Positions 723 through 27,033 of a DNA stretch of 27,033 bases are shown here, one piece after another. This DNA is from a virus (taxonomy: Duplodnaviria > Heunggongvirae > Uroviricota > Caudoviricetes). Position 1 is the first letter of the stretch. Each line of letters opens with the position of its first letter. A program made the position numbers and the translations under genes. The stretch is from the IMG/VR virus record IMGVR_UViG_2537562015_000005, positions 1-27,033 of that record; one strand, given 5' to 3'. The notes beneath the pieces are model-generated. The model was not told the DNA's origin. It did not search any database and saw only the letters and a program-made list of their open reading frames with translations.

Positions 723-879
723 CTGCTCCCTCCCTGTGCGGCATGGTCGCATGTGCGTGCGGAGGGGGTTACTGCTTTTTGTTGTCGCCGTGGCGGGAGA
801 ACGGCGCAGGGGTGAGATTACGCGCGTGGTGGGTGATGATTGTTGCCGAATCATTTAACGGATACAAGGGGCTGAAGCT

Positions 880-2577: not shown

Positions 2578-2631
2578 TAAGTAATATGCAGGCGGCGCAG
2601 TGCGTCGCCTCTGACTGAAAGGAGTTTCCTG

Positions 2632-5955: not shown

Positions 5956-5961
5956 GGAGTC

Positions 5962-6843: not shown

Positions 6844-6853
6844 TGACTCCAAC

Positions 6854-7357: not shown

Positions 7358-7551
7358 CCAACGCCATTCATGGCCATATCAATGATTTTCTGGTGCGTAC
7401 CGGGTTGAGAAGCGGTGTAAGTGAACTGCAGTTGCCATGTTTTACGGCAGTGAGAGCAGAGATAGCGCTGATGTCCGGCGGTGCTTTTGCCGTTACGCAC
7501 CACCCCGTCAGTAGCTGAACAGGAGGGACAGCTGATAGAAACAGAAGCCAC
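7276..7551 (-). CDS. insA: IS1 InsA
   Basis: 91 aa [39 protein letters not shown]...; canonical IS1 insA. Confidence 0.9.
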
Positions 7552-7760
7552 TGGAGCACCTCAAAAACACCATCATACACTAAATCAGTAAGTTGGCAGC
7601 ATCACCCAGGTTTGGCTCGAATAAAAGGTAAAACATTTGGTGCGTTACCGTTAGATAACAATAATCCATTTTGGCTAGATAATGATGCCGCCCCAGGGTT
7701 AAAAAAGAGCCTGGGGGATGTCACTAAGGCTGCATTTGATTTATGTGATAAGTAACTAAA

Positions 7761-8762
7761 ATGTCGGTTCGTAAGATTCCATCAGGTAAATGGCTTTGCG
7801 AATGTTATCCCTACGGGGCATCGGGAAAACGCATTCGTAAACAGTTTGCGACAAAAAGTGAGGCGCTCTCTTATGAGCGCCGTTTAATGAATAGTAGAGT
7901 TGGAGACGAGTTTCAAGATGGTTCTGGTCCTCGTCTTTCTGAGTTGATTGCTCGTTGGTTTGAGATGTACGGTAAAACCTTGTCCTCTGGTGCAGAGCGC
8001 AAAGTCAAACTTGAGGCGATTTGTTCCAGGCTGGGAGATCCATTTGCTTCTCAGTTTGACAAAAATATGTTTGCCACTTATCGGGAAAGAAGGTTATCAG
8101 GAGAGTGGAATCCCAAGGGGAAGAAAAAACTTAGTGAAGCAACCGTTAATCGCGAGCAGTCATATCTACATGCTGTTTTTGCCGAACTGAAGCGCCTTGG
8201 GGAGTGGTCTGGTGAAAACCCCCTGACTGGTATTCGCAAGTTTCGTGAGGAAGAAAAGGAACTGGCGTTTCTGTATGTAGATGAGATTGAACGCCTTCTG
8301 ATTGCGTGTGATGAGTCACGGAATAAAGATTTGGGGGTTGTTGTCCGTATTGGGCTTGCGACTGGTGCTCGGTGGAGTGAAGCAGAAGGGTTAAAGCAAT
8401 CTCAAGTACTGCCCGGTCGAATCACATTTGTTAAAACTAAAGGAAAGAAGAACCGCACTGTACCGATTTCACCTCAATTGCAGGCTATGCTTCCCAAAAA
8501 ACGAGGAGCGCTATTTTCACCATGTTATGAGGCTTTTGACGCTGCAATTAAGAGAGCGAAGATCGAGCTTCCTGATGGGCAATTAACTCATGTGCTACGT
8601 CACACGTTTGCCAGTCATTTTATGATGCGGGGCGGAAATATTCTTGTGTTGCAAAAAATACTGGGGCATAGCGATATAAAAATGACTATGCGTTATGCGC
8701 ATTTTGCTCCAGGTCATTTAGAGGCTGCTGTTGAATTGAACCCTTTTGACAATAGAGGGTAA
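7761..8762 (+). CDS. int: P2-type phage integrase (tyrosine recombinase)
   Basis: 333 aa; C-terminal catalytic region ...GARWSEAEGL...TFVKTKGKKNRTVPIS...HVLRHTFASHFMMRGGNILVLQKILGHSDIKMTMRYAHFAPGHLEAAVELNP closely parallels P2 Int as recalled. Sits next to a tRNA 3' fragment. Confidence 0.9.
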   Translation: MSVRKIPSGKWLCECYPYGASGKRIRKQFATKSEALSYERRLMNSRVGDEFQDGSGPRLSELIARWFEMYGKTLSSGAERKVKLEAICSRLGDPFASQFDKNMFATYRERRLSGEWNPKGKKKLSEATVNREQSYLHAVFAELKRLGEWSGENPLTGIRKFREEEKELAFLYVDEIERLLIACDESRNKDLGVVVRIGLATGARWSEAEGLKQSQVLPGRITFVKTKGKKNRTVPISPQLQAMLPKKRGALFSPCYEAFDAAIKRAKIELPDGQLTHVLRHTFASHFMMRGGNILVLQKILGHSDIKMTMRYAHFAPGHLEAAVELNPFDNRG

Positions 8763-9905: not shown

Positions 9906-9985
9906 TCTTCAATCCTGCCCCGTAATAAAAACACCTTCAGATATATATTATTTTCATGATATCAATCAGATATATGAGGATAAAT

Positions 9986-11185
9986 ATGCAAAAATCCTTC
10001 CGATTCACCAATTCATCCATCAAAGCCCTTCCGGCAAACACAGATACCCGATCTACAGAGCTTGAGGTATCCGATACTGAGGTCATTGGCCTCAAATGCC
10101 TCTCAGGTCGAACGGGTAACAAACGTTTCCTCCTGCGCTACACATTCCACGGTACCAAAAAAAGTATCAGTATTGGCAGATTCCCTGAAATTGATGTGGG
10201 GACAGCCCGTCAGATAGCTCGTCGTCACAAGGAGGCGATTGCACTGGGAAATGACCCTAAGGCAGAACGCGATAATTATCGTGCTATGCCAACGCTTAGT
10301 GAGTTTTTTCACCAGACCTATGTTCCGTTCATCAAACGCCATAAAAAGTCCTGGGATAAGGATGTTCAGCGTTTCACGCAATACATTGAACCTTGTCTGG
10401 GGAAGATACGTTACTGTGACCTTCGGGCCCGGGAAATCCAGCAGGTGCTTTTCGACATGCTTGAGGGTCGTATTCACGGGCAGCAATATGCGCCGTCTAC
10501 CTGTAACAGAGCCCTTGCTATTCTGAAAACGATGGGGCGTTATGCGTTGCGACAGGATGTGCTGGAAAAGAATGAAGCCGATAAGATCCCTTTACTGAAA
10601 GAGAATAATCAGCGGACGCGCTTTTTTGATGCTGATGAGATCAGGCGCATTCTTGACGCTGCTACCCAATATCCCAACAAAGCTGCCGGGGGATTGATAG
10701 CCATGTTGTTGTTAACCGGTACACGCAAAACAGAAATGCTTAATGTCAGGCATGAACATATCGACCGGGCCAATCGTACTCTGTTCATTCCTTATACAAA
10801 AAATGGTCGCAGTCGGACGGTATATCTAAGCGATGCCGCATTATCGATTATTGATGCTATCCCACGAGTTGGCAGTAATCCGTATCTGTTCGCCATTAAG
10901 GATAATGGCAAACCGATATCGGAACCCCGATGGGCATATGAAAAAATACTGGCACAGTGCGGTATAGACAAGAATGAAGTCTGTTTTCACACCACACGTC
11001 ATTCTGTTGCCTCTTTACTGGTTTCGAGTGGTCAATTCAGCCTGTATGACGTTAAAGCCCAACTGGCGCATGCCAGTATTCAGAGTACAGAACGTTACGC
11101 GAAATTAACACCGGAACGTATGCGTCAGACAGGGCAGGGAGTGACTGACCTGCTTCTGAATACTGCGGCTACGAAGCAGATGTGA
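9986..11185 (+). CDS. int: P4-type integrase (tyrosine recombinase)
   Basis: ATG at 9986 preceded by GAGGA (the track ORF starts upstream at 9956 in the same frame). N-terminal arm-binding-type region plus C-terminal catalytic region (..LLLTGTRKTEM..HTTRHSVASLL..ERYAKL). Confidence 0.85.
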   Translation: MQKSFRFTNSSIKALPANTDTRSTELEVSDTEVIGLKCLSGRTGNKRFLLRYTFHGTKKSISIGRFPEIDVGTARQIARRHKEAIALGNDPKAERDNYRAMPTLSEFFHQTYVPFIKRHKKSWDKDVQRFTQYIEPCLGKIRYCDLRAREIQQVLFDMLEGRIHGQQYAPSTCNRALAILKTMGRYALRQDVLEKNEADKIPLLKENNQRTRFFDADEIRRILDAATQYPNKAAGGLIAMLLLTGTRKTEMLNVRHEHIDRANRTLFIPYTKNGRSRTVYLSDAALSIIDAIPRVGSNPYLFAIKDNGKPISEPRWAYEKILAQCGIDKNEVCFHTTRHSVASLLVSSGQFSLYDVKAQLAHASIQSTERYAKLTPERMRQTGQGVTDLLLNTAATKQM

Positions 11186-12484: not shown

Positions 12485-12566
12485 TTTATTTCCTGCACTG
12501 TTATACAACCAGAAATCACCACACACCACTATTTACTTTCTAAAGGAAAATGGTAGTGACTCCAAC

Positions 12567-13070
12567 TTACTGATAGTGTTTTATGTTCAGATAATGCCCG
12601 ATGACCTTGTCATGCAGCTCCACCGATTTTGAGAACGACAGTGACTTCCGTCCCAGCCTTGCCAGATGTTGTCTCAGATTCAGATTATGTCGCTCAATGC
12701 GCTGAGTGTAACGCTTGCTGATAACGTGCAGCTTTCCCTTCAGGCGTGATTCATACAGCGGCCAGCCATCCGTCATCCATACCACGACCTCAAAGGCCGA
12801 CAGCAGGCTCAGAAGACGCGCCAGTGTGGCCAGAGTGCGTTCACCGAAAACGTGCGCCACAACTGTCCTCCGTATCCTGTCATACGCGTAAAACAGCCAG
12901 CGCTGACGTGATTTAGCACCGACGTAGCCCCACTGTTCGTCCATTTCCGCGCAGACAATCACATCACTGCCCGGTTGTATGCGCGAGGTTACCGACTGCG
13001 GCCTGAGTTTTTTAAGTGACGTAAAACCGTGTTGAGGCCAACGCCCATAATGCGGGCAGTTGCCCGGCAT
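12567..13070 (-). CDS. insB: IS1 transposase InsB
   Basis: Identical to 6854..7357. Confidence 0.9.
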
Positions 13071-13264
13071 CCAACGCCATTCATGGCCATATCAATGATT
13101 TTCTGGTGCGTACCGGGTTGAGAAGCGGTGTAAGTGAACTGCAGTTGCCATGTTTTACGGCAGTGAGAGCAGAGATAGCGCTGATGTCCGGCGGTGCTTT
13201 TGCCGTTACGCACCACCCCGTCAGTAGCTGAACAGGAGGGACAGCTGATAGAAACAGAAGCCAC
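12989..13264 (-). CDS. insA: IS1 InsA
   Basis: Identical to 7276..7551. Confidence 0.9.
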
Positions 13265-13314
13265 TGGAGCACCTCAAAAACACCATCATACACTAAATCA
13301 GTAAGTTGGCAGCA

Positions 13315-14139
13315 TCACCCAGAGTATACAATGCTTAAAATTATGGCGTTACTTATATTATTAATTGCAGTTGGGTAAATATGCAGGTTGCTTATCAATT
13401 CTGAAAGGCAAAGTAAAACACCAGTGATGTTAGGTTTTCTGCCAGATATTGTGGTGGTGTTGAAAATGTGCCGATTCTTACGACTTATATTGACAAATTT
13501 ATGAGTGCAGAACTCTATATGTTCGACGATTTTATCTTGACTATTTTTAATGTATTTTGAAATGTTAGTGATTCGTCCATTCAACGTTAGCTCATCAAGT
13601 AATATGTCATTTTTAATACTGCGAATTTCATCGCAATGTTTAGATTCAAAAACTATCTCATGTAATACATAACTCGACGTATTGCGGGGTGACGCTGATA
13701 TGTAATCTAAAATAGAAGGCTCGATTTTGATTTTTTGTTTGTATTTTTTAATGCACTGTTTGATTATTTTTTGTAGAGTATTTGAGATGTGTTTTTTATA
13801 TTCTTTTAGAAAATCATGCTCTAAAAAGAGTGAGGAGAAGATCAACTGCTGGCGAGATAATTTAATCTCAGGCTTGATCAATTTAATCCGGAAAACTCTT
13901 CCCTCCAACTCATAGCTGAACATGGAAGATAAGTCATAGTGGGGTGATAAATGTTCGAGTAACGACATTCGTGTATTCATTAGCCGCTTGAATTTATGGT
14001 CAGCATACATAAGTATTTTTTTTATTTGCTCATCGTAAAGTGGGCCGATAACGCAATTAGCAATACTCATACTATCCGGAGACCTCCAGTCAACAGGGGA
14101 ATCACATTGACGGCCACCATTACAATCAAAGGGTATCAA
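13315..14139 (-). CDS. AT-rich hypothetical protein (K/I/N-rich), probably truncated at the 3' end by IS1; likely start near 14071 (MSIANCVIG...)
   Basis: Visibly AT-rich ORF, foreign to its neighbours. Its stop codon (13315..13317) lies inside the IS1 terminus (IS1 ends 13319). Divergent from hsdM. No family recognised. Confidence 0.5.
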   Translation of the reverse strand: MIPFDCNGGRQCDSPVDWRSPDSMSIANCVIGPLYDEQIKKILMYADHKFKRLMNTRMSLLEHLSPHYDLSSMFSYELEGRVFRIKLIKPEIKLSRQQLIFSSLFLEHDFLKEYKKHISNTLQKIIKQCIKKYKQKIKIEPSILDYISASPRNTSSYVLHEIVFESKHCDEIRSIKNDILLDELTLNGRITNISKYIKNSQDKIVEHIEFCTHKFVNISRKNRHIFNTTTISGRKPNITGVLLCLSELISNLHIYPTAINNISNAIILSIVYSG

Positions 14140-14442: not shown

Positions 14443-16029
14443 ATGAACGACAAAATCAGTCAGGACACGATCAACAAAGCCCTGTGGGCCGCGTGTGATA
14501 CGTTCCGTGGCACCATCAGTGCTGATACCTATAAAGACTTTATCCTTACCATGCTGTTCCTTAAGTACATTTCGGATGTCTGGCAGGATCATTACGATGA
14601 ATATAAAAAACAGTATGGTGATGCACCAGAACTCATTGAAGCCATGATGTCGAATGAACGTTTCGTATTGCCGAAAAGCGCCAGTTTCTATGCGCTGTAT
14701 GAACGTCGTCATGAACCGGGCAATGGTGAGCGCATCGACCAGGCTCTGCATGCGATTGAAGAAGCTAATGGCACCAAACTGAAAGACGCCGGGAAAAGCG
14801 TGTTCCAGGATATTTCGTTTAACACCGATCGCCTAGGTGAAGAAAAACAGAAGAACACCATCCTGCGTCAGCTGCTGGAAGACTTTGCCGGTCAAGATCT
14901 TAACCTGAAGCCGAGCCGTGTCGGTACGCTGGACGTTATCGGTAATGCCTACGAATATCTGATCAAAAACTTTGCTGCCAGCGGTGGGCAGAAAGCCGGG
15001 GAATTCTATACCCCACCAGAAGTTTCGGACCTGATTGCAGAACTGCTCGATCCGCAACCGGGTGATACCATCTGCGATCCGGCCTGTGGTTCCGGTTCAT
15101 TATTGATGAAGTGTGGGCGTAAAATTGTCTCCGGGCATGATAGTCGTAACTATGCATTGTTCGGTCAGGAAGCGATCGGTTCTACGTGGTCGCTGGCGAA
15201 AATGAATATGTTCCTGCACGGGGAAGACAACCATAAAATCGAGTGGGGCGATACCATTCGTAACCCGAAGCTGCTCGATAAAAATGGCGACCTGATGCTG
15301 TTTGATATCGTGACCGCTAACCCACCGTTCAGCCTCGATAAGTGGGGCCATGACGAGGCCGAGAACGATAAGTTTGGCCGTTTTCGTCGCGGTGTACCGC
15401 CGAAGACTAAAGGCGATTACGCCTTTATCTCACATATGATCGAAACCCTGAAACCAGGAACGGGGCGTATGGGCGTAGTTGTGCCACACGGTGTGCTGTT
15501 CCGTGGTTCCAGCGAAGGTAAAATTCGCCAGAAACTGATCGACGAAAATCTGCTGGATGCCGTCATTGGCTTGCCGGAAAAACTGTTCTACGGTACAGGT
15601 ATTCCTGCTGCGATTCTGATTTTCAAAAAACAGAAAGTGGATGACAAGGTACTGTTTATCGATGCCAGCCGTGAATATAAGGCGGGCAAAAACCAGAACC
15701 AGCTCAGCGCAGAAAATATCCAGAAGATCGTTAACACCTATCGTGAAGGCGATAACGTCGAGAAATACGCCTATCTCGCCAGCCTGAAAGAGATTCAGGA
15801 CAACGACTATAACCTTAATATTCCACGCTATGTCGATACCTTTGAGGAAGAAGACGAAATTGATTTGCTGGCGGTACGTGCTGAGCGTGAGCAACTGAAA
15901 GCGGAACTGGTAAAGCTGGAAATGGAGATGGCTGGGTATTTGAAAGAATTAGGGTACGATTGGCAGAAAGATTCCGAGGGCACACAAAAAATAAACTCTG
16001 CGGAAGTGAATTTTGGAGATTTTGAATGA
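14443..16029 (+). CDS. hsdM: Type I restriction-modification N6-adenine DNA methyltransferase HsdM
   Basis: 528 aa; AdoMet motif DPACGSGSLL and catalytic NPPF; N-terminal HsdM-type helical domain. Confidence 0.95.
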   Translation: MNDKISQDTINKALWAACDTFRGTISADTYKDFILTMLFLKYISDVWQDHYDEYKKQYGDAPELIEAMMSNERFVLPKSASFYALYERRHEPGNGERIDQALHAIEEANGTKLKDAGKSVFQDISFNTDRLGEEKQKNTILRQLLEDFAGQDLNLKPSRVGTLDVIGNAYEYLIKNFAASGGQKAGEFYTPPEVSDLIAELLDPQPGDTICDPACGSGSLLMKCGRKIVSGHDSRNYALFGQEAIGSTWSLAKMNMFLHGEDNHKIEWGDTIRNPKLLDKNGDLMLFDIVTANPPFSLDKWGHDEAENDKFGRFRRGVPPKTKGDYAFISHMIETLKPGTGRMGVVVPHGVLFRGSSEGKIRQKLIDENLLDAVIGLPEKLFYGTGIPAAILIFKKQKVDDKVLFIDASREYKAGKNQNQLSAENIQKIVNTYREGDNVEKYAYLASLKEIQDNDYNLNIPRYVDTFEEEDEIDLLAVRAEREQLKAELVKLEMEMAGYLKELGYDWQKDSEGTQKINSAEVNFGDFE

Positions 16030-17123
16030 CTCTTAAATGGGAAAAGGTTCGTTTAGGAGATGTCGCAGAATTACAACGTGGTTTTGATCTACCCAGTACT
16101 AAGCGTATTGAAGGGGAGATTCCTATTGTTTCATCAAGTGGAATAACAGGCTTCCATGTTGAAGCGAAGGCAAAGGCTCCAGGAGTTGTCACTGGGCGAT
16201 ATGGTTCGATTGGTGATGTTTTTTATTTAGAACAGGATTTTTGGCCATTAAATACATCCTTATGGGTTAAAGATTTTCATGGAAATGACGAAAAATTTAT
16301 CTACTTTCTGTTGAGTAACTTTGACTTTAAAAAATTTAGTGACAAAACAGGTGTGCCCGGTGTTAACCGTAATGACTTGCATGCAGTGAATGTATTACTG
16401 CCGCCACTCTCGGAGCAAAAGAAAATCGCCCAAATCCTGTCAACCTGGGATAAAGCTATTTCGGTGACGGAAAAGCTTCTCACCAACAGCCAGCAGCAGA
16501 AAAAAGCCCTGATGCAGCAATTACTTACCGGGAAGAAACGCTTGCTGGATGAGAGGGGGGGCAGGTATGGTGGTGAGTGGCATCGTGCTGAGCTTGGCGC
16601 AGTTTTAGATTATATGCAGCCAACCCCTTATCTAGTTGATTCTACTGATTATAATGATAGTTACTCAATCCCAGTTCTTACAGCAGGTAAAAGTTTCATT
16701 CTTGGCTATACCAATGAAGAACATGGTATTTATCATGCACCTTTGCCTGCCATAATTTTTGATGATTTCACGACTGATAGTAAGTTCGTCGATTTTGAAT
16801 TCAAAGCAAAATCCAGTGCGATGAAAATTCTTACAGCCAAAAAAGGAGTATCTGCAAAGTATATTTTTGAAGCAATGCAAATGTTGAAATTTAAAATAGG
16901 TGGGCATCAGCGGCATTGGATTTCAATTTATTCCAACTTAGTAATACCTATTCCAGATGCCAAGGAACAACAAAAAATCGCCGCCGTCCTTTCCGCTGCA
17001 GACGCCGAAATCTCCACACTGGAGAAAAAACTCGCCTGCCTGAAAGACGAGAAAAAAGCCCTGATGCAGCAGTTACTGACCGGAAAACGTCGGGTGAAAA
17101 TCGATGAGGCTGTTGCTGCATGA
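16026..17123 (+). CDS. hsdS: Type I R-M specificity subunit HsdS
   Basis: 365 aa with two target-recognition domains separated by conserved helical repeats (QQKKALMQQLLTGKKRL and EKKALMQQLLTGKRRV). ATGA overlap with hsdM. TRD2 is visibly more AT-rich. Confidence 0.9.
   Translation: MTLKWEKVRLGDVAELQRGFDLPSTKRIEGEIPIVSSSGITGFHVEAKAKAPGVVTGRYGSIGDVFYLEQDFWPLNTSLWVKDFHGNDEKFIYFLLSNFDFKKFSDKTGVPGVNRNDLHAVNVLLPPLSEQKKIAQILSTWDKAISVTEKLLTNSQQQKKALMQQLLTGKKRLLDERGGRYGGEWHRAELGAVLDYMQPTPYLVDSTDYNDSYSIPVLTAGKSFILGYTNEEHGIYHAPLPAIIFDDFTTDSKFVDFEFKAKSSAMKILTAKKGVSAKYIFEAMQMLKFKIGGHQRHWISIYSNLVIPIPDAKEQQKIAAVLSAADAEISTLEKKLACLKDEKKALMQQLLTGKRRVKIDEAVAA
16500..16540 (+). repeat. hsdS conserved central repeat; direct repeat partner at 17052..17089
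   Basis: AAAAAAGCCCTGATGCAGCA(A/G)TTACT(T/G)ACCGG occurs twice within hsdS, about 550 bp apart. Confidence 0.8.
17052..17089 (+). repeat. hsdS conserved C-terminal repeat; partner of 16500..16540
   Basis: See partner repeat. Confidence 0.8.
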
Positions 17124-17803
17124 AACTGACGAAAAGTGGTCCACTGACTGACCGGGAAATCGACTGGCTGGAAGAGGTGTTGATGAAATACGGCAATGAT
17201 GACTCTGTGCTCTGTTTCTCTGAGCTGGATGGCTTTCTGACGGCGATTGTCTCTGGCCCGAATACGATTTCCCCTAATACCTGGCTCAGTGCTATCTGGG
17301 GGCGAGGTGATTACCACCCTCGCTGGACCACTGAAAAAGAGATGACGCGTTTTGTGGGGCTGTGTTTTCAGCATATGAACGATATCGCTGGCTGCCTGTA
17401 TGAGGCCCCTGAACAGTTTGAACCGATTTTCAATGAGCGTGAGGTAAAGGGGGAAAAATATACCATTGTGGAAGAGTGGTGTTTTGGTTATATGAAAGGA
17501 AAGTCACTGGATGACTGGTCTGGTCTTCCCGGTGAGTTACGGCCTTCTCTGGAAGTGATCGCTCTTCATGGCGTGGAGAAGAATTTTCCTGTACTTGAGA
17601 AAATGACCGGAGAGCAGTTTGAGAAAAGTATTTCCCTTATTCAGCCTGCTGCACTGGCACTTTATCAGTACTGGTTGTCAGTGAGAATGTCAGAGGCATC
17701 ATCCCGGCCTGTTCCAGTGAAGGGGGCAGAAAACATGCCCGGGCGAAATGACCCGTGTCCGTGTGGCAGCGGTAAAAAATTTAAGAAGTGCTGTCTGCAT
17801 TGA
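17120..17803 (+). CDS. YecA-like protein (UPF0149 domain + C-terminal SEC-C zinc-binding motif) embedded in the hsd operon
   Basis: 227 aa ending GRNDPCPCGSGKKFKKCCLH (SEC-C motif as in the SecA C-terminus and YecA). N-terminal region resembles YecA. Start overlaps the hsdS stop (ATGA). Confidence 0.8.
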   Translation: MKLTKSGPLTDREIDWLEEVLMKYGNDDSVLCFSELDGFLTAIVSGPNTISPNTWLSAIWGRGDYHPRWTTEKEMTRFVGLCFQHMNDIAGCLYEAPEQFEPIFNEREVKGEKYTIVEEWCFGYMKGKSLDDWSGLPGELRPSLEVIALHGVEKNFPVLEKMTGEQFEKSISLIQPAALALYQYWLSVRMSEASSRPVPVKGAENMPGRNDPCPCGSGKKFKKCCLH

Positions 17804-17852: not shown

Positions 17853-20800
17853 ATGATGAACCAGACGTACACGCCAAAATTCCAGGAAGAATACAGCGCC
17901 AAAATTCCGGCACTGACGTTACTGACCAGCCTCGGCTGGACGTTTTTATCTCCGAAACAGATTATGGATTACCGGGGCTATAAACAGGATGAGGTGGTGC
18001 TGCGTCCGGTTCTGCGTGAAGAGCTGTCGAAGCGTTCCTTTATGGCGGGTGGCAAAACCTGCCAGTTATCGGAAAAAGCACTGGATAACCTGATATCACA
18101 GGTCTGTTCTCCGGCGCTCAATGAAGGGCTGCTCAAAGCCAATGAACGGATGTATAACCATCTGCTCTACGGTATCGCCGTCACGGAGTTTGTCGATGGC
18201 AAGAAGGTCAACCCCACCATTGCGCTGATCGACTGGGAACATCCGGAAAATAACCAGTTCCATTTTACTGAAGAATTTACGGTATTGCGGTCAGGTGGTG
18301 TTGAAACCCGGAGGCCAGATATTGTCTGCTTTGTTAATGGTATCCCGCTGGCTGTTATTGAAGCGAAAAGCCCGGCTGGTCATGGCAAGAAAGGGCCAAC
18401 CATTGACGAGGGGATATCCCAGAGTATCCGCAACCAGTTCAACGATGAAATCCCGCAGCTGTTTGTCTACAGCCAGTTATTACTTTCGATTAACGGTCAT
18501 GACGGGCGCTACGGTACATGCCATACGCCAATGAAATTCTGGGCGGCATGGCGCGAAGAAGATATTACCGATGCGCAGATGTATGCTCTGCGCAACCATC
18601 CTTTATCGACTGAACAAATTCATGCGTTGTTTGATCATCGTCCATCAGCCGATCTCAACTGGTACCAACAGTTAATCGCCGCCGGTGAACTGGCTGTCAG
18701 TGGACAGGACAAACTGCTCATCAGCCTGCTTTCGCCGGAACGTCTGCTGGAGATGACCCGCTTCTTCACTCTGTTTGATAAAAAGACCGGGAAAATTGTC
18801 GCCCGCTATCAGCAGGTGTTCGGTATTAAAAGACTGCTGGAGCGCATCAGTACCCGCAGACCCGATGGGGGCAGGGAAGGTGGTGTTATCTGGCATACCA
18901 CCGGCTCTGGCAAATCGTACACCATGGTGTTCCTCAGCAAGGCGCTGATTCTTCATGACAGCCTGAAGCGGTGTCGTATCGTGGTGGTGACGGACCGTAT
19001 CGATCTTGAAGAACAGCTCAGCAGTACCTTTGCATCCGGCGGCGAGTTGGCCGGGAAAAAAGACAAAGCCAATGCAATGGCGACATCCGGGCAGATGCTG
19101 GCGAAACAGATTGGCTCTGGTAAAGAACGCATCATTTTCACCCTAATCCAGAAATTTAATTCAGCGACAAAACTTCCTGAATGCGTCAATACCAGCCCCG
19201 ATATCATCGTTCTGATTGATGAAGGACACCGTAGCCAGGGTGGTGAGAACCATGTGCGAATGAAACTGGCACTGCCGAACGCCGCCTTTGTAGCATTTAC
19301 TGGTACGCCATTGCTAAAAGAAGATAAGACCACCAATAAATTCGGACCGATTGTCCACGCTTATACCATGCAGCGAGCGGTAGAAGATAAAGCCGTTACA
19401 CCTTTGCTGTATGAAGAACGTATTCCCGACCTTGAGGTTAACGATCGGGCAATAGATGCCTGGTTTGATCGTATTACCGATGGGTTAAGCGAAGCGCAAA
19501 AAGCCGACCTTAAGCGTAAATATGCCCGTAAAGGTGAGGTTTATAGTGCAGATGATCGCATCCGTCTGATCGCACTCGATATCGCCACGCACTTCTCGAA
19601 GAATATTGATGAGGGACTGAAAGGCCAGCTTGCCTGCGACAGCAAGATTTCCGCCATCAAATATAAAAAGTATCTTGATGAAGCCGGGTTGTTTGAGTCA
19701 GCTGTAGTTATCAGCCCGCCGGATACCCGGGAAGGGAATACTGAGGTGGATGAAAGCAAACTGCCGGAAGTGACGAAATGGTGGAAAGATAACGTCGGCA
19801 CGCAGGATGAGTCTGTGTATACCCGCAATATCATCAGTCGTTTCGATACCGATGAGAAGCTCAAATTGCTGATAGTCGTTGATAAACTGCTCACCGGGTT
19901 TGATGAGCCGAAGAATACCGTGCTGTATATCGACAAGCCGCTTAAGTCCCACAACCTTATCCAGGCGATTGCGCGGGTGAACCGACTGCATCCACTAAAA
20001 AAGTTCGGTCTGCTGATTGATTATCGCGGTATTCTGGCTGAGCTGGACACGACTATCGGCAAATATCAGGACCTCGCCTCCCGAACTCAGGGCGGATACG
20101 ACATCAAAGATATTGACGGGCTGTACAGCGCCATGAGCTCTGAATACAAGCGCCTGCCGCATCTGTATAACCAGCTGTGGGCCATATTTGCTGGTGTCAA
20201 AAACAAAAATGATACTGAGCAGTTACGTGCGGTACTGGTGCCTAAAATGGAAGAACGTGACGGAGAGATGGTCGATATCCATCAGAAAACCCGTGATGAT
20301 TTCTTCGAGGCGTTAACGGCCTTTGCCGGATGCCTGAAAGTGGCATTGCAGTCCGCCACCTTCTTCACCGACAAGAGCTTTACGGAACAAGACCGAAATC
20401 TCTATAAAGAAACCGTAAAACAGATGTCCAGCCTGCGCCAGTGGGCGATGCAGGTAAGTGGAGAGCAGGTCAATTATGACGACTACGCTGAGCAGGTGAA
20501 AAAACTGCTGGATAAGCATGTCACCGGCGTTGAGGTTCGTGAACCGGATGGCGTGTATGAAGTCGGTAAAATGGGCAAGAGCGAAAAGCCCGAAGAGTGG
20601 GACAACAATAAAACCCGCAATGAAACCGACATCATTAAAACCCGTGTGACAAAGATGATTGAGCAGGAGCTGCGTGATGACCCGTATGCTCAGGAAGCCT
20701 TTTCAAAACTCCTGCGTATGGCTATTGAAGAGGCTGAAAAACTGTTCGACCATCCGTTGAAACAGTATCTCTTGTTCCGTGAATTTGAAGAACAGGTTGA

Positions 20801-21140
20801 AGCCCGTAAGCTCAGCGATATCCCGGATGCACTGGCGGTAAACAAGCATGCTCAGGCGTATTACGGTGTATTTAAAAAAGAGCTACCAGAGGTTTTTGCG
20901 GTAAACGACGTTCAGGTGCAGGATAAGTGGACGAAGCTGGCTTTTGAAGTGGACAACATTATCGTCAAAGCGGTGGCAGAAAACTCCCTGAACCCACAGG
21001 ATATTGAAAAAGCCGTTAAGACAAGTCTTTTGCCGCTGCTGTTTACGGCCTGCCGGGAGATGGGTGCCGGAATGAATCAGGTTAACCGTATTGTGGAAAC
21101 CATCATCCAGATACTGCGCGTTGGTTTGATGAAATCATGA
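17853..21140 (+). CDS. hsdR: Type I restriction enzyme R subunit HsdR (EcoR124-like, probably type IC)
   Basis: 1095 aa; nuclease region (FVNGIPLAVIEAKS), helicase motifs (GGVIWHTTGSGKS, LIDEGHRSQ, FTGTP, LLTGFDEP, QAIARVNR) colinear with EcoR124 HsdR as recalled. Confidence 0.95.
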   Translation: MMNQTYTPKFQEEYSAKIPALTLLTSLGWTFLSPKQIMDYRGYKQDEVVLRPVLREELSKRSFMAGGKTCQLSEKALDNLISQVCSPALNEGLLKANERMYNHLLYGIAVTEFVDGKKVNPTIALIDWEHPENNQFHFTEEFTVLRSGGVETRRPDIVCFVNGIPLAVIEAKSPAGHGKKGPTIDEGISQSIRNQFNDEIPQLFVYSQLLLSINGHDGRYGTCHTPMKFWAAWREEDITDAQMYALRNHPLSTEQIHALFDHRPSADLNWYQQLIAAGELAVSGQDKLLISLLSPERLLEMTRFFTLFDKKTGKIVARYQQVFGIKRLLERISTRRPDGGREGGVIWHTTGSGKSYTMVFLSKALILHDSLKRCRIVVVTDRIDLEEQLSSTFASGGELAGKKDKANAMATSGQMLAKQIGSGKERIIFTLIQKFNSATKLPECVNTSPDIIVLIDEGHRSQGGENHVRMKLALPNAAFVAFTGTPLLKEDKTTNKFGPIVHAYTMQRAVEDKAVTPLLYEERIPDLEVNDRAIDAWFDRITDGLSEAQKADLKRKYARKGEVYSADDRIRLIALDIATHFSKNIDEGLKGQLACDSKISAIKYKKYLDEAGLFESAVVISPPDTREGNTEVDESKLPEVTKWWKDNVGTQDESVYTRNIISRFDTDEKLKLLIVVDKLLTGFDEPKNTVLYIDKPLKSHNLIQAIARVNRLHPLKKFGLLIDYRGILAELDTTIGKYQDLASRTQGGYDIKDIDGLYSAMSSEYKRLPHLYNQLWAIFAGVKNKNDTEQLRAVLVPKMEERDGEMVDIHQKTRDDFFEALTAFAGCLKVALQSATFFTDKSFTEQDRNLYKETVKQMSSLRQWAMQVSGEQVNYDDYAEQVKKLLDKHVTGVEVREPDGVYEVGKMGKSEKPEEWDNNKTRNETDIIKTRVTKMIEQELRDDPYAQEAFSKLLRMAIEEAEKLFDHPLKQYLLFREFEEQVEARKLSDIPDALAVNKHAQAYYGVFKKELPEVFAVNDVQVQDKWTKLAFEVDNIIVKAVAENSLNPQDIEKAVKTSLLPLLFTACREMGAGMNQVNRIVETIIQILRVGLMKS

Positions 21141-21892
21141 GTGAAAAAGAATCGCCATCAATGAAAGCGTTACGCATTGTTTATGGTGATGAGGTCATCA
21201 CCGTACAGTGTGTTCCGCGTCAGGTCGTAAAGGGCAGGGTGCTCATCAAGGTTTATCCGGACTGCCGGGTTGTGGCCTCTGTACCGCCTGAAACACCGGA
21301 GCACGAGGTATTGTCTGCGCTGAAAAAACGAGGGCGCTGGATATACCAGCAACTGCGTGATTTCAGGGTGCAACAGACACACATTGTTCCGCGTCAGTAT
21401 GTCAGCGGAGAAAGCCATTATTATCTCGGTAAGCAATATCAGTTGAAAGTGACAGAAGACGCTACTGTGCCGCAACGAGTGAAAATGTTGCGTGGGCGTC
21501 TGGAAGTGACTGTCAGACACAAATCGGCAGAAAAGATTAAAGCCTTGCTGGCTGAATGGTATCGGGAACGCGCCAGAGATGTTTTTCAGCGCAGGCTTGA
21601 TTTACTGATTCCGCAGACCCTTTGGGTCAGTGAGCGTCCTCCGATACGTCTGCGGGCGATGCAAACGCAATGGGGCAACTGCTCTGCAAAAGGCTGTCTG
21701 ACCCTGAATCCATGGCTGGTTAAGGCATCCTCAGAATGTATCGATTATGTCTTGCTACATGAGTTATGCCATGTGGCTGAGCACAACCATAGTGAGGAGT
21801 TTTACCGCTTGATGGGGCAGGTTATGCCGGGGTGGGAAAAGGTTAAGAAGCGACTGGATGGTATGGCTGGGATGTTGTTGGCAGATATGTAG
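21137..21892 (+). CDS. HExxH zinc metallopeptidase-like protein (DUF45/YgjP-like), translationally coupled to hsdR
   Basis: 251 aa with LLHELCHVAEHNH (HExxH) near the C-terminus; start overlaps the hsdR stop (ATGA). Confidence 0.8.
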   Translation: MSEKESPSMKALRIVYGDEVITVQCVPRQVVKGRVLIKVYPDCRVVASVPPETPEHEVLSALKKRGRWIYQQLRDFRVQQTHIVPRQYVSGESHYYLGKQYQLKVTEDATVPQRVKMLRGRLEVTVRHKSAEKIKALLAEWYRERARDVFQRRLDLLIPQTLWVSERPPIRLRAMQTQWGNCSAKGCLTLNPWLVKASSECIDYVLLHELCHVAEHNHSEEFYRLMGQVMPGWEKVKKRLDGMAGMLLADM

Positions 21893-21923: not shown

Positions 21924-22525
<602 letters not shown>

Positions 22526-22546
22526 CCACTTCATACCGCAGGAGGC

Positions 22547-24001
22547 ATGATGGAGAGCATTAATAATCAAGTGCAGTCGGTACGCCAGTTGCTGGCCATT
22601 CCCCAACTGGCCATCCCAAGCTATCAGCGACCTTACCGCTGGGGCTCCAAGAATATCTCGGATCTCTTTACCGATTTGGCAACCCATCAGGACAAGAGCG
22701 CCTACCGGCTGGGCTCGGTGGTGTTTCATCAGCACACCGATAGTGAGCAGGGCGAGATGCTTGATATCGTCGATGGTCAGCAACGCACCCTGACCCTGAT
22801 GTTGACCGTCAAGGCGCTGATCGAGGTGCTGGATAACGAAAATCGCAGTGGCAAAGAGAAGAGTATCCGGTTTCAACGTCAGGATCTGCGTGAGCAATTG
22901 CAGGTCTTGCGTGGACCTATCGATGCGTTTATGCAGCGCCAGCGCTTCCCCAGCCGGGATTCGGAGTTCAACCTCAGACGTAACTATCTGGAGTTGCGTC
23001 GGCTGGTGGCCCGCCCTGAGTTTGACGAGCAGCAAATTGACTTTCTGCTCAACCGCTGTCAGGTGGTCTGCTTTGTACTGCAGGATATCTCGGAGGCGTT
23101 CCAGTTCTTCGATTCGCAAAATGCCCGGGGGCGCGATCTGGCTCCTCACGATCTGCTCAAGGCATTTCACCTGCGCGAGTTTGCCGGTCATGAGGCCAAT
23201 CTCAAGGCCGAGGCGGTCGCCCATTGGGAGCGCCAGCCAAGCGACGAGCTGGCCAATCTGTTCGCCCTCTATCTCTATCGGGTACGCCAGTGGGCCGAGG
23301 GCAAGTCGGCCCGCTACTTTGGCAAGGGGGAGGTGGATCTCTTCAAGGGGGTCAACCTAGATCGGGTAGGGCATTATCCTTACGTGGAGTCGCTGCGCAT
23401 CGCCCACCACTTTGTCGATGAGTACAACAGCCAGTACCAGCGCAAGATTGACGGCCAGTACATGACGTTTCCCTTTCATCTCGACCAGATGATCATCAAT
23501 GGTCGGCGCTTTTTCGAGATGGCCGAGTACTACCAGACGCGGGTGGCCGCCATCGTGGCCGAGGAGTCTGATTCCGGCAAGGCGCAATCTGCCACCCTGC
23601 TCGGCGAAACGCTGACACCGATGGCCAGCAAGGTGCTATCGACCCTGGGCAGCTACGAGCGTCGCCACCGCACCGGGGATCGTTATGTGCGGGCCATGTT
23701 CGACTGCGCCCTGATCTTCTATATCGACAAGTTCGGCAGCCAAGGGCTGTCACTGGCCATCGAGAAGTGCTTTATCTGGGCCTATCGCTGCCGCATCCGC
23801 CAGCAGGTAGTGCAGTTGGCAACCATGGATAACTATGTGCTGGAGCACAATCTGATCCGTGCCATTCGTGATGCTCGTCTGCCGGGAGATCTGCACGGCT
23901 TCCCTTTGCCTAGCATGAGCAGTCGAGAGAACAAGAACAATCGCAATGGTGCCGAAGATGAGCTGGTCGGGCTGTTTCGGGAGATGAAATATTATGAATG
24001 A
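22547..24001 (+). CDS. DUF262-domain protein (ParB-like/GmrS-like N-terminal module; no nuclease motif seen)
   Basis: 484 aa; N-terminal motifs [10 protein letters not shown] and [12 protein letters not shown], then [22 protein letters not shown]. High GC. Overlaps the next gene by 8 nt. Confidence 0.8.
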
Positions 24002-26036
24002 TGCAGGCGTTCGCCCCTTTTCCATTCGTGCACTGCTTGAAGATCGCGCCCGCTATCTGGTGCCCATGTACCAGCGCAACTATGCCTGGGGTGAGGGAGA
24101 GATCACCCAGCTGCTGCAGGATGTGCTGGATTATCAGCAAAAATTGGTCAGTGGTAAGGGGCCGCAAACCTACTATATCGGCACCCTGGTGGTGTTTGCC
24201 CGGGACGATGGCAGTTTCGAGGTAATCGATGGCCAGCAGCGCTTTACTACCCTCTCTCTGCTGGCCAATTGGCTCAAACATCACGCGATAGATTCGGTGG
24301 ATATGAGCTGGTATCAGACCATCAACCTCGCTTTTGAGAGTCGCCCGATATCGAGCCATACCTTCGAGCGCTTATGGCAGGGTGTTGCCCCCGACGATTT
24401 GCGGGGGAGTACCTTCAATGAAGGTTTGGTGAACGGTTTTGAGCTGATTGGCAAGGCAATGGCGGATCTTGGTTTGGTAGGGGCTAAACTGACGGCCTTT
24501 TGCGACTACCTCTTCAAGCATGTGCAGATCTCTCGTATCGAAGTACCCAAGGATACCGATCTCAATCACTTCTTCGAGGCGATGAACAATCGCGGCGAGC
24601 AGTTGGAAAAGCATGAAGTGATCAAGGCGCGGCTGATGGAGACGCTGAACCAGATACCCGAGGAAGAGCATCGTCGCCAAAGTATTCATATCCTGACCCG
24701 GGTATGGGATGCCTGCGCCAATATGGAGCGCTATATCCAGTACGGCTTTACCCCGCAAGAGCGCCACCGTCTGTTTGGTGAGAGCGACTGGGGTCAGTTT
24801 GTGCCCCGTGATTTTGCCCATCTGCTTGAACTGCTAGGATCCCCAAACACGGCCGACGCTGCCGATAAAAGCCGTGCAGCTGCCGGTAGCCAAGGGCGCA
24901 CCTTGTTGGCCATTTTGCAGGATGACAAGCTTGATGGTGAGCAGACGGTGGAGGAGGAGAGCGCAGGCTCCGAGCGCTTTAACAGCGTCATCAACTTCTC
25001 CAACTTCTTGCTCCATGTGCTGCGACTCGTGAGCCGCGACCCGGGTGATACGGAGGGGGTGCCGCTTGATGATAAACAACTGGTCGATCAGTTTGAGCTG
25101 CGAGTGATAAGGCAACCGGATCCAGTAGCGGCAGTTCAGCGTTTTATCTATGGCCTGTTAAAGAGCAAGTATCTGTTTGATCAGTTCATCATCAAGCGCG
25201 AGTTTGCCGATGGCAAGGATAGTTGGAGTCTGAAGCGGCTGCACTGGTATTCGGAAAAGAGCGTCAGTTACATCAATACCTTTGACAAGGATGAAAATGA
25301 GAATGGTTTCTCTGGTGTTAACCGGCGGGTCCTGATGTTGCTGTCGGCGTTTCATGTGTCGACCCCGACCCTGGTTTACAAACATTGGCTGAATGGTGCA
25401 CTGAGATATCTGTTCGACAATTGTCACCCTGATCAACCGGTGGATGCCGGGGCTTATCTGTCCTATCTGGAGAGTCAGGCTCGCCGCTTTGTCTTCCAGC
25501 GCTTTTTGGCGCCTGGTGAAGGGGCTTCCTATTACCAGATGCTCTACCTTGATAACGCCCTGTTGCCCGCCATCAATGTGGATGAGAGTTGGCACAAGGT
25601 GATTACATCCAAACTTCGCTTCGGTCATATCGAGAACAACTTTGTCTTCAACTTCCTTGACTATCTGCTGTGGGTACGAGATCGGAATAGCGACAAAGTT
25701 GCTGGCTCCTTTGAGTTCACTTTCCGCAGCTCGGTGGAGCACTTCTCACCCCAGCATCCGATGGATGGCTATAAACCGGTTGAGCAGAGTGCACTCCATT
25801 CGTTTGGCAACCTTTGCCTTATCAGCCACAGCAAGAACTCGCGCTTGAGTAACTTCCAGCCGCAACAGAAGCAGGAGCACTTTGAAGCAAGCCTTGCCAA
25901 TAACCAGACTGATAGTCTTAAATTGCTTGCTATGATTCGGCTGATGAAAGATAAAGGTCGTTGGCTGGAAGATGAGATAGCTGAGCATCAACAAGATATG
26001 TTGCAGGTCTTACTATCCAATCAAATTCAGCAATAA
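23994..26036 (+). CDS. DUF262 + DUF1524 protein (GmrSD-like, candidate type IV / modification-dependent endonuclease)
   Basis: 680 aa; N-terminal [38 protein letters not shown]; C-terminal His-Me-finger-like region [15 protein letters not shown]...[20 protein letters not shown]. High GC. Confidence 0.85.
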
Positions 26037-26111
26037 CGGATTGAATCTGTTTATGAAATTTGGCTGCTATCAACTAATGGGCGTTAAGTTGATTGTATGA
26101 TCTGATTGATA

Positions 26112-26143
26112 AAGAAGGGGAGACTAAAAATCTCCTCTTCTTT
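26112..26143 (+). terminator. Possible terminator hairpin downstream of the DUF262 cassette
   Basis: AAGAAGGGGAGA-CTAAAAA-TCTCCTCTTCTT, a 12-bp stem with one mismatch; weak T tract. Confidence 0.35.
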
Positions 26144-26223
26144 GCAGCAGTTTACTGCGGTCTTTTTGTGATGCATCAGCATAAAACGTTTTACTTGTGG
26201 ACCCCTAAGAAATGGAGAACATT

Positions 26224-27033
<810 letters not shown>

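What the first reader, a model, noticed from the sequence alone, without database searches (positions are those of the whole stretch)
22547..26036. High-GC two-gene cassette: DUF262 protein plus DUF262+DUF1524 (GmrSD-like) protein, a candidate modification-dependent defence system
Two overlapping genes (8-nt ATGAATGA overlap) encode (A) a 484-aa protein with the N-terminal DUF262 signatures (YQRPYRW, DGQQR) and no obvious nuclease motif, and (B) a 680-aa protein with the same N-terminal module fused to a C-terminal DUF1524-type His-Me-finger region (..[22 protein letters not shown]..). Classical GmrSD is a single fused polypeptide or a GmrS+GmrD pair; here a DUF262-only partner is coupled to a complete fused GmrSD-like enzyme, which suggests a regulator/sensor plus effector arrangement. 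The cassette is far more GC-rich than its surroundings and is boxed in by IS debris upstream and an IS21-cut gene downstream, as expected for recently acquired defence cargo. It may correspond to a recently named two-component type IV system; that cannot be settled without a search.
Basis: partly seen in the sequence, partly recalled or inferred. Interest (0 to 1): 0.8.

Follow-up and report, generated by a model that had tools for sequence, protein, structure and literature searches.

The report
Known two-gene GmrSD-type restriction system

Summary
Two intact genes, A (22547/22550-24001) and B (23994-26036), overlap by 8 nt. A is DUF262 (GmrSD_N) plus DUF7834. B is DUF262 plus a DUF1524 (GmrSD_C) His-Me nuclease.

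The system is already described. B is 676/680 and A 480/483 identical to GmrSD2 and GmrS1 of E. coli ECOR17 ('GmrSD_ECOR17', Nat Commun 2025, PMC12373910). That work showed:
- both genes are required;
- an E582A/H583A mutant is dead, and B has E582-H583;
- T2, T6 and T4 lacking ip2 and ip3 are restricted, while hypomodified T4 is not;
- T4 Ip3 blocks the system, and induction is toxic.

A cassette 100% identical in DNA (strain FORC_031) is listed as a TgvAB homologue in Table S5 of the V. cholerae TgvAB paper (PMC11411939). Similarity to V. cholerae TgvA/TgvB is distant (27-30% and 24%). Architecture, the 8-nt overlap and the residues tested in TgvB (H571, N602) are conserved.

The cassette is not embedded in the neighbouring type I R-M operon. 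It belongs to an IS3-end/A/B/hhe module that is 99.65% identical on Klebsiella plasmids. The GC excess is modest (54% against 49%).

Still open:
- the role of A and its DUF7834 domain;
- how this copy is transcribed;
- whether its Q230 substitution matters.

Novelty: already known. Interest: low.

The parts
22547..24001 (+). Gene A (GmrS1/TgvA-type): DUF262 NTPase-like domain plus DUF7834, with no nuclease domain. The likely true start is the ATG at 22550 (483 aa).
   Evidence: - ORF.
- Pfam GmrSD_N E 2e-28 and DUF7834 E 9e-77.
- 480/483 identical to ECOR17 GmrS1 (APT18_07330).
- RefSeq WP_001419185 belongs to CLS_004 of PMC12373910.
- 27-30% identical to V. cholerae TgvA, which has the same Pfam architecture.
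23994..26036 (+). Gene B (GmrSD2/TgvB-type): DUF262 plus a helical linker plus a DUF1524 His-Me finger nuclease. Catalytic E582-H583 and metal-ligand N615.
   Evidence: - ORF.
- Pfam GmrSD_N E 1.7e-29 and GmrSD_C E 1.7e-12.
- 676/680 identical to ECOR17 GmrSD2 (APT18_07335).
- 24% identical over the full length to V. cholerae TgvB (E 2e-31).
- H583 and N615 align with TgvB H571 and N602 in invariant columns.
23994..24001 (+). 8-nt overlap ATGAATGA between the stop codon of A and the start codon of B. A GGAG lies 10 nt upstream at 23980-23983. This is the geometry expected for translational coupling.
   Evidence: - Sequence.
- The same 8-nt overlap occurs in the Vogesella, Enterobacter, V. parahaemolyticus and V. 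cholerae loci.
- The overlap was reported for tgvAB.
22534..22546 (+). The only native upstream DNA left (13 nt, with the Shine-Dalgarno sequence AGGAGG). Everything further upstream belongs to an IS3-family element.
   Evidence: - Homology to the Vogesella cassette (86%) starts at 22534, and homology to the Klebsiella plasmids at 22287.
- Sequence.
22287..22533 (+). 3' end of an IS3-family element (transposase C-terminal fragment at 22319-22525) that abuts the cassette. The element is complete at the same position on Klebsiella plasmids.
   Evidence: - Pfam rve_3/rve_2.
- RefSeq 'integrase core domain' pseudogene.
- Complete IS3 transposase upstream of the cassette in L003.
- Extent of shared DNA.
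26212..26607 (+). N-terminal fragment of the anti-phage gene hhe (DUF4011), truncated by IS100. It travels with the cassette but is not part of the two-gene enzyme.
   Evidence: - PADLOC Hhe E 1.6e-65.
- NCBIfam Hhe_antiphage.
- RefSeq annotation.
- Intact hhe follows the cassette in L002 and L003.

Best explanation
The cassette is a two-subunit, modification-dependent (type IV) restriction enzyme of the GmrSD family. It is the E. coli 'GmrS1/GmrSD2' (GmrSD_ECOR17) system and belongs to the TgvAB-type architecture.

**Proposed working.**
- A and B are made from one transcript, probably in coupled amounts through the 8-nt stop/start overlap (inferred).
- Each protein carries a ParB-like DUF262 NTP-binding module with the QR, DGQQR and FxxxN motifs.
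- The two proteins act together, most likely as a hetero-oligomer (inferred).
- Together they recognise incoming phage DNA whose cytosines are glucosyl-hydroxymethylated.
- Recognition licenses the DUF1524 His-Me finger nuclease of B (E582, H583, N615) to cut that DNA, which stops T-even phage infection directly.
- T4 escapes by injecting the internal protein Ip3, which specifically inhibits this enzyme.

**Shown by others for an allele 99.4% identical:** both genes are needed; the E582/H583 site is needed; T2, T6 and T4 lacking ip2 and ip3 are restricted; hypomodified T4 is not restricted; Ip3 inhibits; induction is toxic.

**Shown for V. cholerae TgvAB:** the DGQQR motifs of both subunits and H571/N602 of TgvB are needed, and loss of glucosylation lets phage escape.

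**Inferred only:** complex formation, the role of DUF7834, NTP control of the nuclease, and expression of this particular copy.
For: 1. **Domains and motifs.**. The nuclease motif aligns with solved GmrSD-family chains and with TgvB H571/N602 in invariant columns.
2. **Near identity to the characterised ECOR17 proteins.** B is 676/680 identical and A 480/483. The sequences were rebuilt from Supplementary Dataset 5 of PMC12373910. Their mutant numbering, E582A/H583A, is exactly B's E582-H583.
3. **Cluster membership.** The RefSeq proteins of the 100%-identical FORC_031 cassette are members of that paper's clusters CLS_003 and CLS_004, which form the GmrSD_ECOR17-type two-gene system.
4. **TgvAB catalogue.** The same FORC_031 proteins are hit 101 of the TgvAB MacSyFinder model in Table S5 of PMC11411939.
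5. **Conserved pairing.** An A-type gene is followed by a B-type gene with an 8-nt overlap in unrelated contexts: beside CRISPR-Cas in Vogesella, beside SNF2/AAA/S8 genes in Enterobacter, and embedded in type I R-M operons in V. parahaemolyticus and V. cholerae.
6. **Published phenotypes.**
Against: - No experiment was done on this exact allele.
- It differs from ECOR17 at 4 positions in B and 3 in A. One of these, A Q230, falls where at least 90% of 49 homologues, ECOR17 and the Klebsiella alleles have Leu.
- An IS3-family end lies 13 nt upstream of the start codon, and no convincing promoter was found. Expression of this copy is therefore unproven.
- Identity to V. cholerae TgvA/TgvB is low (27-30% and 24%). 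Details transferred from TgvAB are inference, in particular the need for the DGQQR motif of each subunit.
- In-vitro cleavage specificity has not been reported for either two-gene system in the papers read.
Confidence: 0.92

Rival explanations
1. The cassette is intact in sequence but silent or impaired in this genome. It would be carried as inert cargo, either because the IS3-family insertion removed its promoter or because the A L230Q substitution weakens the partner subunit.
For: - Only 13 nt of native upstream DNA remain, and no promoter-like site is usefully placed.
- A Q230 lies at a nearly invariant Leu position.
- The neighbouring hhe is destroyed by IS100, which shows that the island is decaying.
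Against: - Both ORFs are full length with every catalytic motif intact.
- The same IS3 junction is kept at 99.65% identity on the Klebsiella plasmids examined (L002, L003), and the cassette is in 276 E. coli genomes. That fits maintained function.
- The published system is so toxic that leaky expression suffices, so read-through from the IS may be enough.
Confidence: 0.1
2. A, B and the downstream Hhe helicase-nuclease form one three-gene system, so the two-gene cassette would be incomplete here because hhe is cut by IS100.
For: A-B-hhe are contiguous, and the whole module is 99.65% identical between the E. coli chromosome and Klebsiella plasmids.
Against: - The two genes alone gave defence when cloned.
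- Deleting Hhe in ECOR17 did not let Ip3-less T4 infect.
- Divergent A-B pairs occur without hhe in Vogesella, Enterobacter and Vibrio.
- NCBI and PADLOC treat Hhe as a stand-alone system.
Confidence: 0.03
3. The pair senses a different DNA modification, as other DUF262/DUF1524 systems do: phosphorothioate (SspE, DndI) or 7-deazaguanine (GrwAB). Sugar-modified hydroxymethylcytosine would then not be its target.
For: - PADLOC partial hits to SspE models.
- PDB sequence hits to SspE and a fold hit to DndI.
- GrwAB shows that two-protein GmrSD-like systems can have other targets.
Against: - These matches cover little beyond the shared DUF262 domain: PADLOC best stretches are N-terminal but for one SspE model on the nuclease region, PDB E-values are 3e-6 to 0.3, and the fold TM-score is 0.32.
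- The 99.4%-identical allele restricts T-even phages but not hypomodified T4.
- No dnd or ssp modification genes lie in the window.
Confidence: 0.04

Closest known systems
GmrSD_ECOR17 (GmrS1 APT18_07330 + GmrSD2 APT18_07335) of E. coli ECOR17; clusters CLS_004/CLS_003 (Nat Commun 2025, PMC12373910)
   Same: - Essentially the same proteins: A 480/483 and B 676/680 identical.
- Same lengths and the same E582-H583 active site.
- The RefSeq ids of the identical FORC_031 proteins are listed in those clusters.
   Different: - Seven amino-acid substitutions: B D134, E279, R348 and E664 against Y, D, C and V; A D49, Q230 and S295 (484-aa numbering) against G, L and R.
- This allele has not been tested.
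- Whether the two loci share the same context was not compared.
TgvAB (VC1767/VC1766) of Vibrio cholerae VPI-2 (PMC11411939; bioRxiv 10.1101/2024.04.05.588314)
   Same: - Same two-gene architecture: A is GmrSD_N+DUF7834 and B is GmrSD_N+GmrSD_C.
- Same 8-nt ATGnnTGA overlap.
- Conserved QR, DGQQR and FxxxN motifs in both proteins, and H and N nuclease residues in B.
- Both genes are required, and the targets are T-even phages with glycosylated hmC.
- The identical FORC_031 cassette is listed as a homologue by the authors.
   Different: - Only 27-30% (A) and 24% (B) identity.
- Not embedded between hsdS and hsdR. Here it lies downstream of hsdR-M48, behind IS debris.
- TgvAB restricted wild-type T4, whereas wild-type T4 escapes the ECOR17 allele through Ip3.
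Single-chain GmrSD enzymes (Eco94GmrSD, GmrSD of CT596) and BrxU
   Same: B has the same DUF262, linker and DUF1524 layout and a His-Me finger. These enzymes are likewise modification-dependent and restrict T-even DNA.
   Different: - Those enzymes work as single polypeptides, whereas B alone is inactive.
- Apart from DGQQR there is almost no sequence similarity.
- Their inhibitors differ: Ip1 for the CT596 enzyme and Ip2 for BrxU/ECOR21, against Ip3 here.
GrwAB of WASA-lineage V. cholerae
   Same: A two-protein GmrSD-like system in which both partners carry DUF262 and one carries DUF1524.
   Different: - The DUF262-only partner has a different, extended C-terminus.
- It has a broader target range, including 7-deazaguanine-modified phages.
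SspE / DndI phosphorothioate-sensing nucleases
   Same: Shared DUF262 fold, and a DUF1524-type nuclease in SspE. These are the best solved-structure relatives.
   Different: - They depend on host phosphorothioate modification genes, which are absent here.
- Similarity is weak (E 3e-6 to 0.3; TM-score 0.32).

Membership tests
[quoted passage not shown] | N-terminal DUF262 (PF03235) with QR, DGQQR and FxxxN motifs | tested here: met
   Pfam E 2e-28 for A and 1.7e-29 for B. Motifs lie at A26-28, A76-80, A188-192 and B26-28, B79-83, B194-198. They are invariant in the alignments.
[quoted passage not shown] | C-terminal DUF1524 (PF07510) His-Me finger with an H...N...H/N motif | tested here: met
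   B residues 555-671, E 1.7e-12. H583, N606, N615 and N620 are invariant. The motif aligns with the nuclease motif of solved chains 20yv and 9jfl. A lacks this domain.
[quoted passage not shown] | Restriction depends on modified (glucosyl-hmC) DNA | not testable with these tools
   Reported at phage level for the 99.4%-identical ECOR17 allele: T2, T6 and T4 lacking ip2 and ip3 are restricted, and hypomodified T4 is not. Also reported for TgvAB.
GmrSD_ECOR17-type two-gene system (CLS_003/CLS_004) | Near identity to GmrS1 and GmrSD2 of ECOR17 | tested here: met
   A is 480/483 and B 676/680 identical. WP_001419185 is in CLS_004 and WP_000995973 in CLS_003.
GmrSD_ECOR17-type two-gene system (CLS_003/CLS_004) | Both genes required; inhibited by T4 Ip3 | not testable with these tools
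   Published for ECOR17. Not tested for this allele.
TgvAB | Adjacent genes: TgvA is DUF262 without a nuclease, TgvB is DUF262+DUF1524 | tested here: met
   for the window. Searches show that V. cholerae TgvA is also GmrSD_N+DUF7834 and TgvB is GmrSD_N+GmrSD_C.
TgvAB | tgvA and tgvB ORFs overlap by 8 bp | tested here: met
   ATGAATGA at 23994-24001. V. cholerae has ATGGGTGA.
TgvAB | Embedded inside a type I R-M operon, between hsdS and hsdR (the 'type I-embedded' part of the name) | tested here: not met
   The window order is hsdM, hsdS, yecA-like, hsdR, M48, IS1 and IS3 debris, then A-B. The Klebsiella plasmid copies examined have no annotated type I R-M gene within 8 kb. A 64%-identical pair in V. 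parahaemolyticus is embedded. The authors themselves count non-embedded pairs as homologues: 1,341 hits, 17 times the number of embedded ones.
TgvAB | Significant sequence homology to VC1767 and VC1766, and detection by the authors' model | tested here: met
   B against TgvB: E 2e-31, 24% identity, colinear over the full length. A against TgvA: E 8e-20, 30% over DUF262, plus DUF7834. The FORC_031 proteins are Table S5 hit 101.
TgvAB | Catalytic residues shown to be essential in TgvB (H571, N602) are conserved | tested here: met
   H583 and N615 of B align with them in invariant columns.
PADLOC-DB v2.0.0 defence models (HEC-06, Orf5, SspE, mREase_IV) | Full-length match to a named model | tested here: not met
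   Best-scoring stretches cover about the first 100-220 residues (the DUF262 domain), except one SspE model that matches B 578-646. No full-length match. This fits Srikant et al. 2022, where annotation pipelines missed the ECOR17 system.

The most novel reading that the evidence does not exclude
The system itself is known. What is not known is why a complete GmrSD-like nuclease needs a second, nuclease-less DUF262 protein.

The most novel reading still open is this. The DUF7834 domain of A would be a partner-dependent interface that folds only against B. It would act as the modification sensor or licensing switch of a hetero-oligomer, and possibly as the target of T4 Ip3. On this reading the tightly conserved 8-nt overlap fixes the stoichiometry of a toxic enzyme.

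A second point may not have been reported. The A-B-hhe module is carried at 99.7% identity on hundreds of conjugative Klebsiella plasmids.
Probability: 0.3. Interest if true: 0.45.

Novelty: already known. Interest (0 to 1): 0.15.

Why it matters
The finding adds no new kind of system. Its value is in annotation. About 5% of complete E. coli genomes (276 of 5,426) and more than 400 plasmid records, mostly from Klebsiella, carry this cassette. It is labelled only 'DUF262 domain-containing protein' twice, and neither NCBIfam release 20.0 nor PADLOC v2.0.0 names it. It can now be named as the Ip3-sensitive GmrS1/GmrSD2 (TgvAB-type) type IV restriction system. That bears on predicting the host range of T-even phages, including therapeutic ones. 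The open mechanistic question, what the DUF7834 partner does, is shared with TgvAB and remains worth structural work.

Tried and rejected
1. **PADLOC v2.0.0 and NCBIfam scans.** PADLOC gave only partial matches, almost all to the DUF262 domain (HEC-06, Orf5, SspE, mREase_IV), and NCBIfam gave nothing. Neither helped to name the system.
2. **Sequence search of solved structures.** It returned weak DUF262 hits and confirmed only the nuclease motif of B.
3. **Is A a nuclease-less paralogue of B beyond DUF262?** BLASTP and profile-profile comparison found similarity in DUF262 only (A 5-216 against B 4-222). DUF7834 is therefore not a recognisable copy of B's linker.
4. **AlphaFold2 model of A from 49 homologues.** Mean pLDDT was 68.6. 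DUF262 was confident, but residues 232-323 fell below 50. Foldseek against the PDB gave only DndI (9jfl) at TM-score 0.32. The model says nothing useful about DUF7834.
5. **Literature search for DUF7834.** No papers were found.
6. **Three-gene A-B-Hhe system.** Considered and rejected.
7. **Promoter scan upstream of A.** Nothing exceeded the shuffle expectation or was usefully placed.
8. **Not run.** I did not run a structure prediction of B or the large metagenome and genome-collection scans, because the identity of the system was already settled.
Full report
**1. What is in the sequence**

A runs from 22547 to 24001 (+, 484 aa) and B from 23994 to 26036 (+, 680 aa). They share the 8 nt ATGAATGA, so the stop of A lies inside the start of B.

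Pfam places these domains:
- A: GmrSD_N/DUF262 at 21-208 (E 2e-28) and DUF7834 at 220-465 (E 9e-77).
- B: GmrSD_N at 12-215 (E 1.7e-29) and GmrSD_C/DUF1524 at 555-671 (E 1.7e-12).

The quoted motifs are all present. These are YQR at residue 26 of both proteins, DGQQR at A76 and B79, FDSQN at A188 and FEAMN at B194. B also has E582-H583, G605-N606, N615 and N620.

Three details need correcting:
- The start of A is more likely the second ATG, at 22550. RefSeq and the ECOR17 annotation both give 483 aa, and the AGGAGG Shine-Dalgarno sequence ends 1 nt before 22547.
- A's C-terminal half is a conserved domain (DUF7834), not featureless sequence.
- The GC excess is modest. A is 56.6% GC, B 51.9% and the cassette 54.0%. 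The whole window is 49.4%, hsdR 49.5% and the hhe fragment 43.7%. The prophage part, window 1-6000, is 55.2%.

**2. Surroundings**

Upstream lies a type I R-M operon:

| Gene | Coordinates |
|---|---|
| hsdM | 14443-16029 |
| hsdS | 16026-17123 |
| yecA-like gene | 17120-17803 |
| hsdR | 17853-21140 |
| M48/YgjP-like peptidase | 21137-21892 |

An IS1 insA fragment (21979-22254) and the 3' end of an IS3-family transposase gene (22319-22525) follow. Downstream, an N-terminal fragment of the anti-phage gene hhe (26212-26607) is cut by IS100 (istB 26617-27033, minus strand). The 'boxed in by IS debris' description is therefore correct.

**3. Identification**

The 3,490-bp cassette is at least 99% identical in 276 of 5,426 complete E. 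coli genomes. It is 100% identical in strain FORC_031, where RefSeq calls both genes 'DUF262 domain-containing protein'. Two published data sets already hold these proteins.

*The TgvAB catalogue.* Table S5 of the V. cholerae TgvAB paper (PMC11411939) lists FORC31_2075 and FORC31_2076 as hit 101 of the authors' TgvAB model.

*The ECOR17 study.* PMC12373910 (Nat Commun 2025) describes 'a distinct Type IV RE [that] requires two GmrS-like genes' in E. coli ECOR17. I rebuilt GmrS1 (APT18_07330) and GmrSD2 (APT18_07335) from the alignments in its Supplementary Dataset 5.
- A is 480/483 identical to GmrS1, and B is 676/680 identical to GmrSD2.
- Their nuclease-dead mutant, E582A/H583A, uses exactly B's numbering.
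- The RefSeq accessions of the FORC_031 proteins sit in their clusters CLS_004 (WP_001419185) and CLS_003 (WP_000995973), which together define that two-gene type.

**4. What is experimentally known**

For the ECOR17 allele:
- Neither gene alone protects, even when overexpressed.
- Both together are toxic when induced, but under leaky expression they restrict T2, T6 and T4 lacking ip2 and ip3.
- Truncating GmrS1 or mutating E582/H583 abolishes defence.
- Hypomodified T4 is not restricted.
- T4 Ip3 specifically inhibits the system. This explains the earlier finding that T4 needs ipIII to infect ECOR17.
- In 2022 annotation pipelines missed the system. That fits my PADLOC v2.0.0 result, which shows only partial matches, nearly all to the DUF262 domain, and the absence of any NCBIfam model.

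For V. cholerae TgvAB:
- The DGQQR motif of each subunit is required, as are TgvB H571 and N602.
- T2 and T4 mutants that lose glucosylation escape.

**5. Relation to TgvAB, tested here**

I recovered full-length V. cholerae TgvB (P0121, 663 aa) and its locus L010. The gene order there is hsdM, hsdS, tgvA, tgvB, hsdR, zorA.
- B aligns colinearly with TgvB at 24% identity (E 2e-31).
- TgvB H571 and N602 correspond to B H583 and N615, both in invariant columns.
- A aligns with TgvA at 27-30% identity.
- TgvA has the same GmrSD_N+DUF7834 architecture as A.
- The V. cholerae genes overlap by ATGGGTGA, the same 8-nt geometry.

Closer relatives of A (57-90% identity) number in the thousands. In every locus examined they are followed by a B-type gene with an 8-nt overlap:
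- in Vogesella, beside type I-E CRISPR-Cas;
- in Enterobacter hormaechei, beside SNF2/AAA/S8-peptidase genes;
- in V. parahaemolyticus, embedded as hsdM, hsdS, A, B, hsdR, M48.

The pair is thus a conserved, self-contained unit that moves between defence islands. The one TgvAB feature not met here is embedding in the type I operon. The cassette lies behind hsdR-M48 and IS debris.

**6. Mobility**

Window 22287-26550 covers the IS3 end, A, B and the start of hhe. It is 99.65% identical to the Klebsiella plasmids examined (L002, L003). The cassette itself matches 406 plasmid records, 395 of them Klebsiella and 366 conjugative. On the two plasmids examined, a complete IS3-family transposase precedes the cassette and an intact hhe follows it.

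Homology to the 86%-identical Vogesella cassette begins only at 22534. Just 13 nt of native leader, including the Shine-Dalgarno sequence, therefore survive upstream of A. No convincing sigma-70 promoter was found. How this copy is transcribed is unknown. Because the enzyme is toxic and works at leaky levels, read-through may be enough.

**7. Mechanism**

The best-supported model has these steps:
- A and B are co-translated from overlapping ORFs. A GGAG lies 10 nt before B's ATG.
- They act together, probably as a complex.
- The DUF262 NTPase-like modules sense glucosyl-hmC DNA.
- B's His-Me finger cuts it.
- Ip3 blocks the enzyme.

Shown by others: both genes are needed, the nuclease site is needed, restriction depends on modification, and Ip3 inhibits. 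Inferred: complex formation, NTP gating (by analogy with BrxU and SspE, as reviewed), translational coupling, and any role for DUF7834.

My attempts to learn more about DUF7834 were uninformative:
- Profile comparison finds A-B similarity only in DUF262.
- The AlphaFold2 model is confident for DUF262 but below pLDDT 50 across residues 232-323.
- The only significant fold match is DndI, at TM-score 0.32.

**8. Caveats for this allele**

It differs from ECOR17 at seven residues. Six are at variable positions. The seventh is A Q230. ECOR17, the Klebsiella alleles and at least 90% of 49 homologues have Leu at that position. Activity of this exact allele and its expression in this context are untested.

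**9. Verdict**

The system is already known:
- catalogued in 2024 as a TgvAB homologue;
- characterised in 2025 as GmrSD_ECOR17.

Interest is low. What remains of value is better annotation of a widespread cassette and the unresolved role of the DUF7834 partner.

Noticed in passing
window 17120-17803 (+): A YecA-family gene (UPF0149 + SEC-C motif; NCBIfam PRK10396, E 2e-108) sits between hsdS and hsdR. In V. cholerae (L010) and V. parahaemolyticus (L008) that slot holds tgvAB. In FORC_031 the island lies close to the chromosomal yecA (L001 35532-36197). It may be another 'type I-embedded' accessory gene.
   Followed up: no
window 22287-26550; L002 3236-7498; L003 5147-9409: The module of IS3 end, A, B and hhe is 99.65% identical to the two Klebsiella plasmids examined (L002, L003). 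The cassette itself matches 406 plasmid records (395 Klebsiella, 366 conjugative), including pNJST258N3-type and IncFII plasmids. An anti-T-even restriction system is therefore spreading on clinical Klebsiella plasmids.
   Followed up: partly
window 26212-27033: The anti-phage gene hhe (DUF4011) is interrupted after about 113 codons by IS100 (IS21 family; istB at 26617-27033, minus strand). In FORC_031 the rest of hhe continues beyond the IS. On the Klebsiella plasmids examined hhe is intact (about 1,911 aa).
   Followed up: partly
window 22534-22550: Only 13 nt of native leader (with the Shine-Dalgarno sequence AGGAGG) separate the IS3-family end from gene A. No usable promoter was found, so the source of transcription is unexplained.
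   Followed up: partly
window 23234-23236 (codon 230 of A): A has Gln230 where ECOR17 GmrS1, the Klebsiella alleles and at least 90% of 49 homologues have Leu. This substitution is specific to the FORC_031-type allele, and its effect is unknown.
   Followed up: partly
proteins P0050 (449 aa) and P0074 (642 aa): Two database proteins are 100% identical to parts of A yet carry GmrSD_N, DUF7834 and GmrSD_C in one chain. They are probably internal-deletion fusions of A and B in some isolates. P0019 (476 aa, 89% identical over 89% of A) is named a DeoR regulator and also carries PF08220 (an HTH domain), so it may be a chimera.
   Followed up: no
window 1043-6456, 6839-7606, 7761-8762, 12551-13319: The window holds P2-like prophage tail genes (sheath, tube, tape measure, gpU), then an IS1 copy and a phage-type integrase. 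A second integrase (9956-11185) and a second IS1 copy precede the type I R-M genes. Unlike FORC_031, where IS1 directly precedes hsdS and no hsdM is annotated, this window has an intact hsdM (14443-16029).
   Followed up: partly
A residues 232-323 (window about 23240-23515): The first half of DUF7834 is strongly conserved, with many invariant residues in 49 homologues. AlphaFold2 nevertheless models it with pLDDT below 50 as a monomer. It may fold only against a partner.
   Followed up: partly
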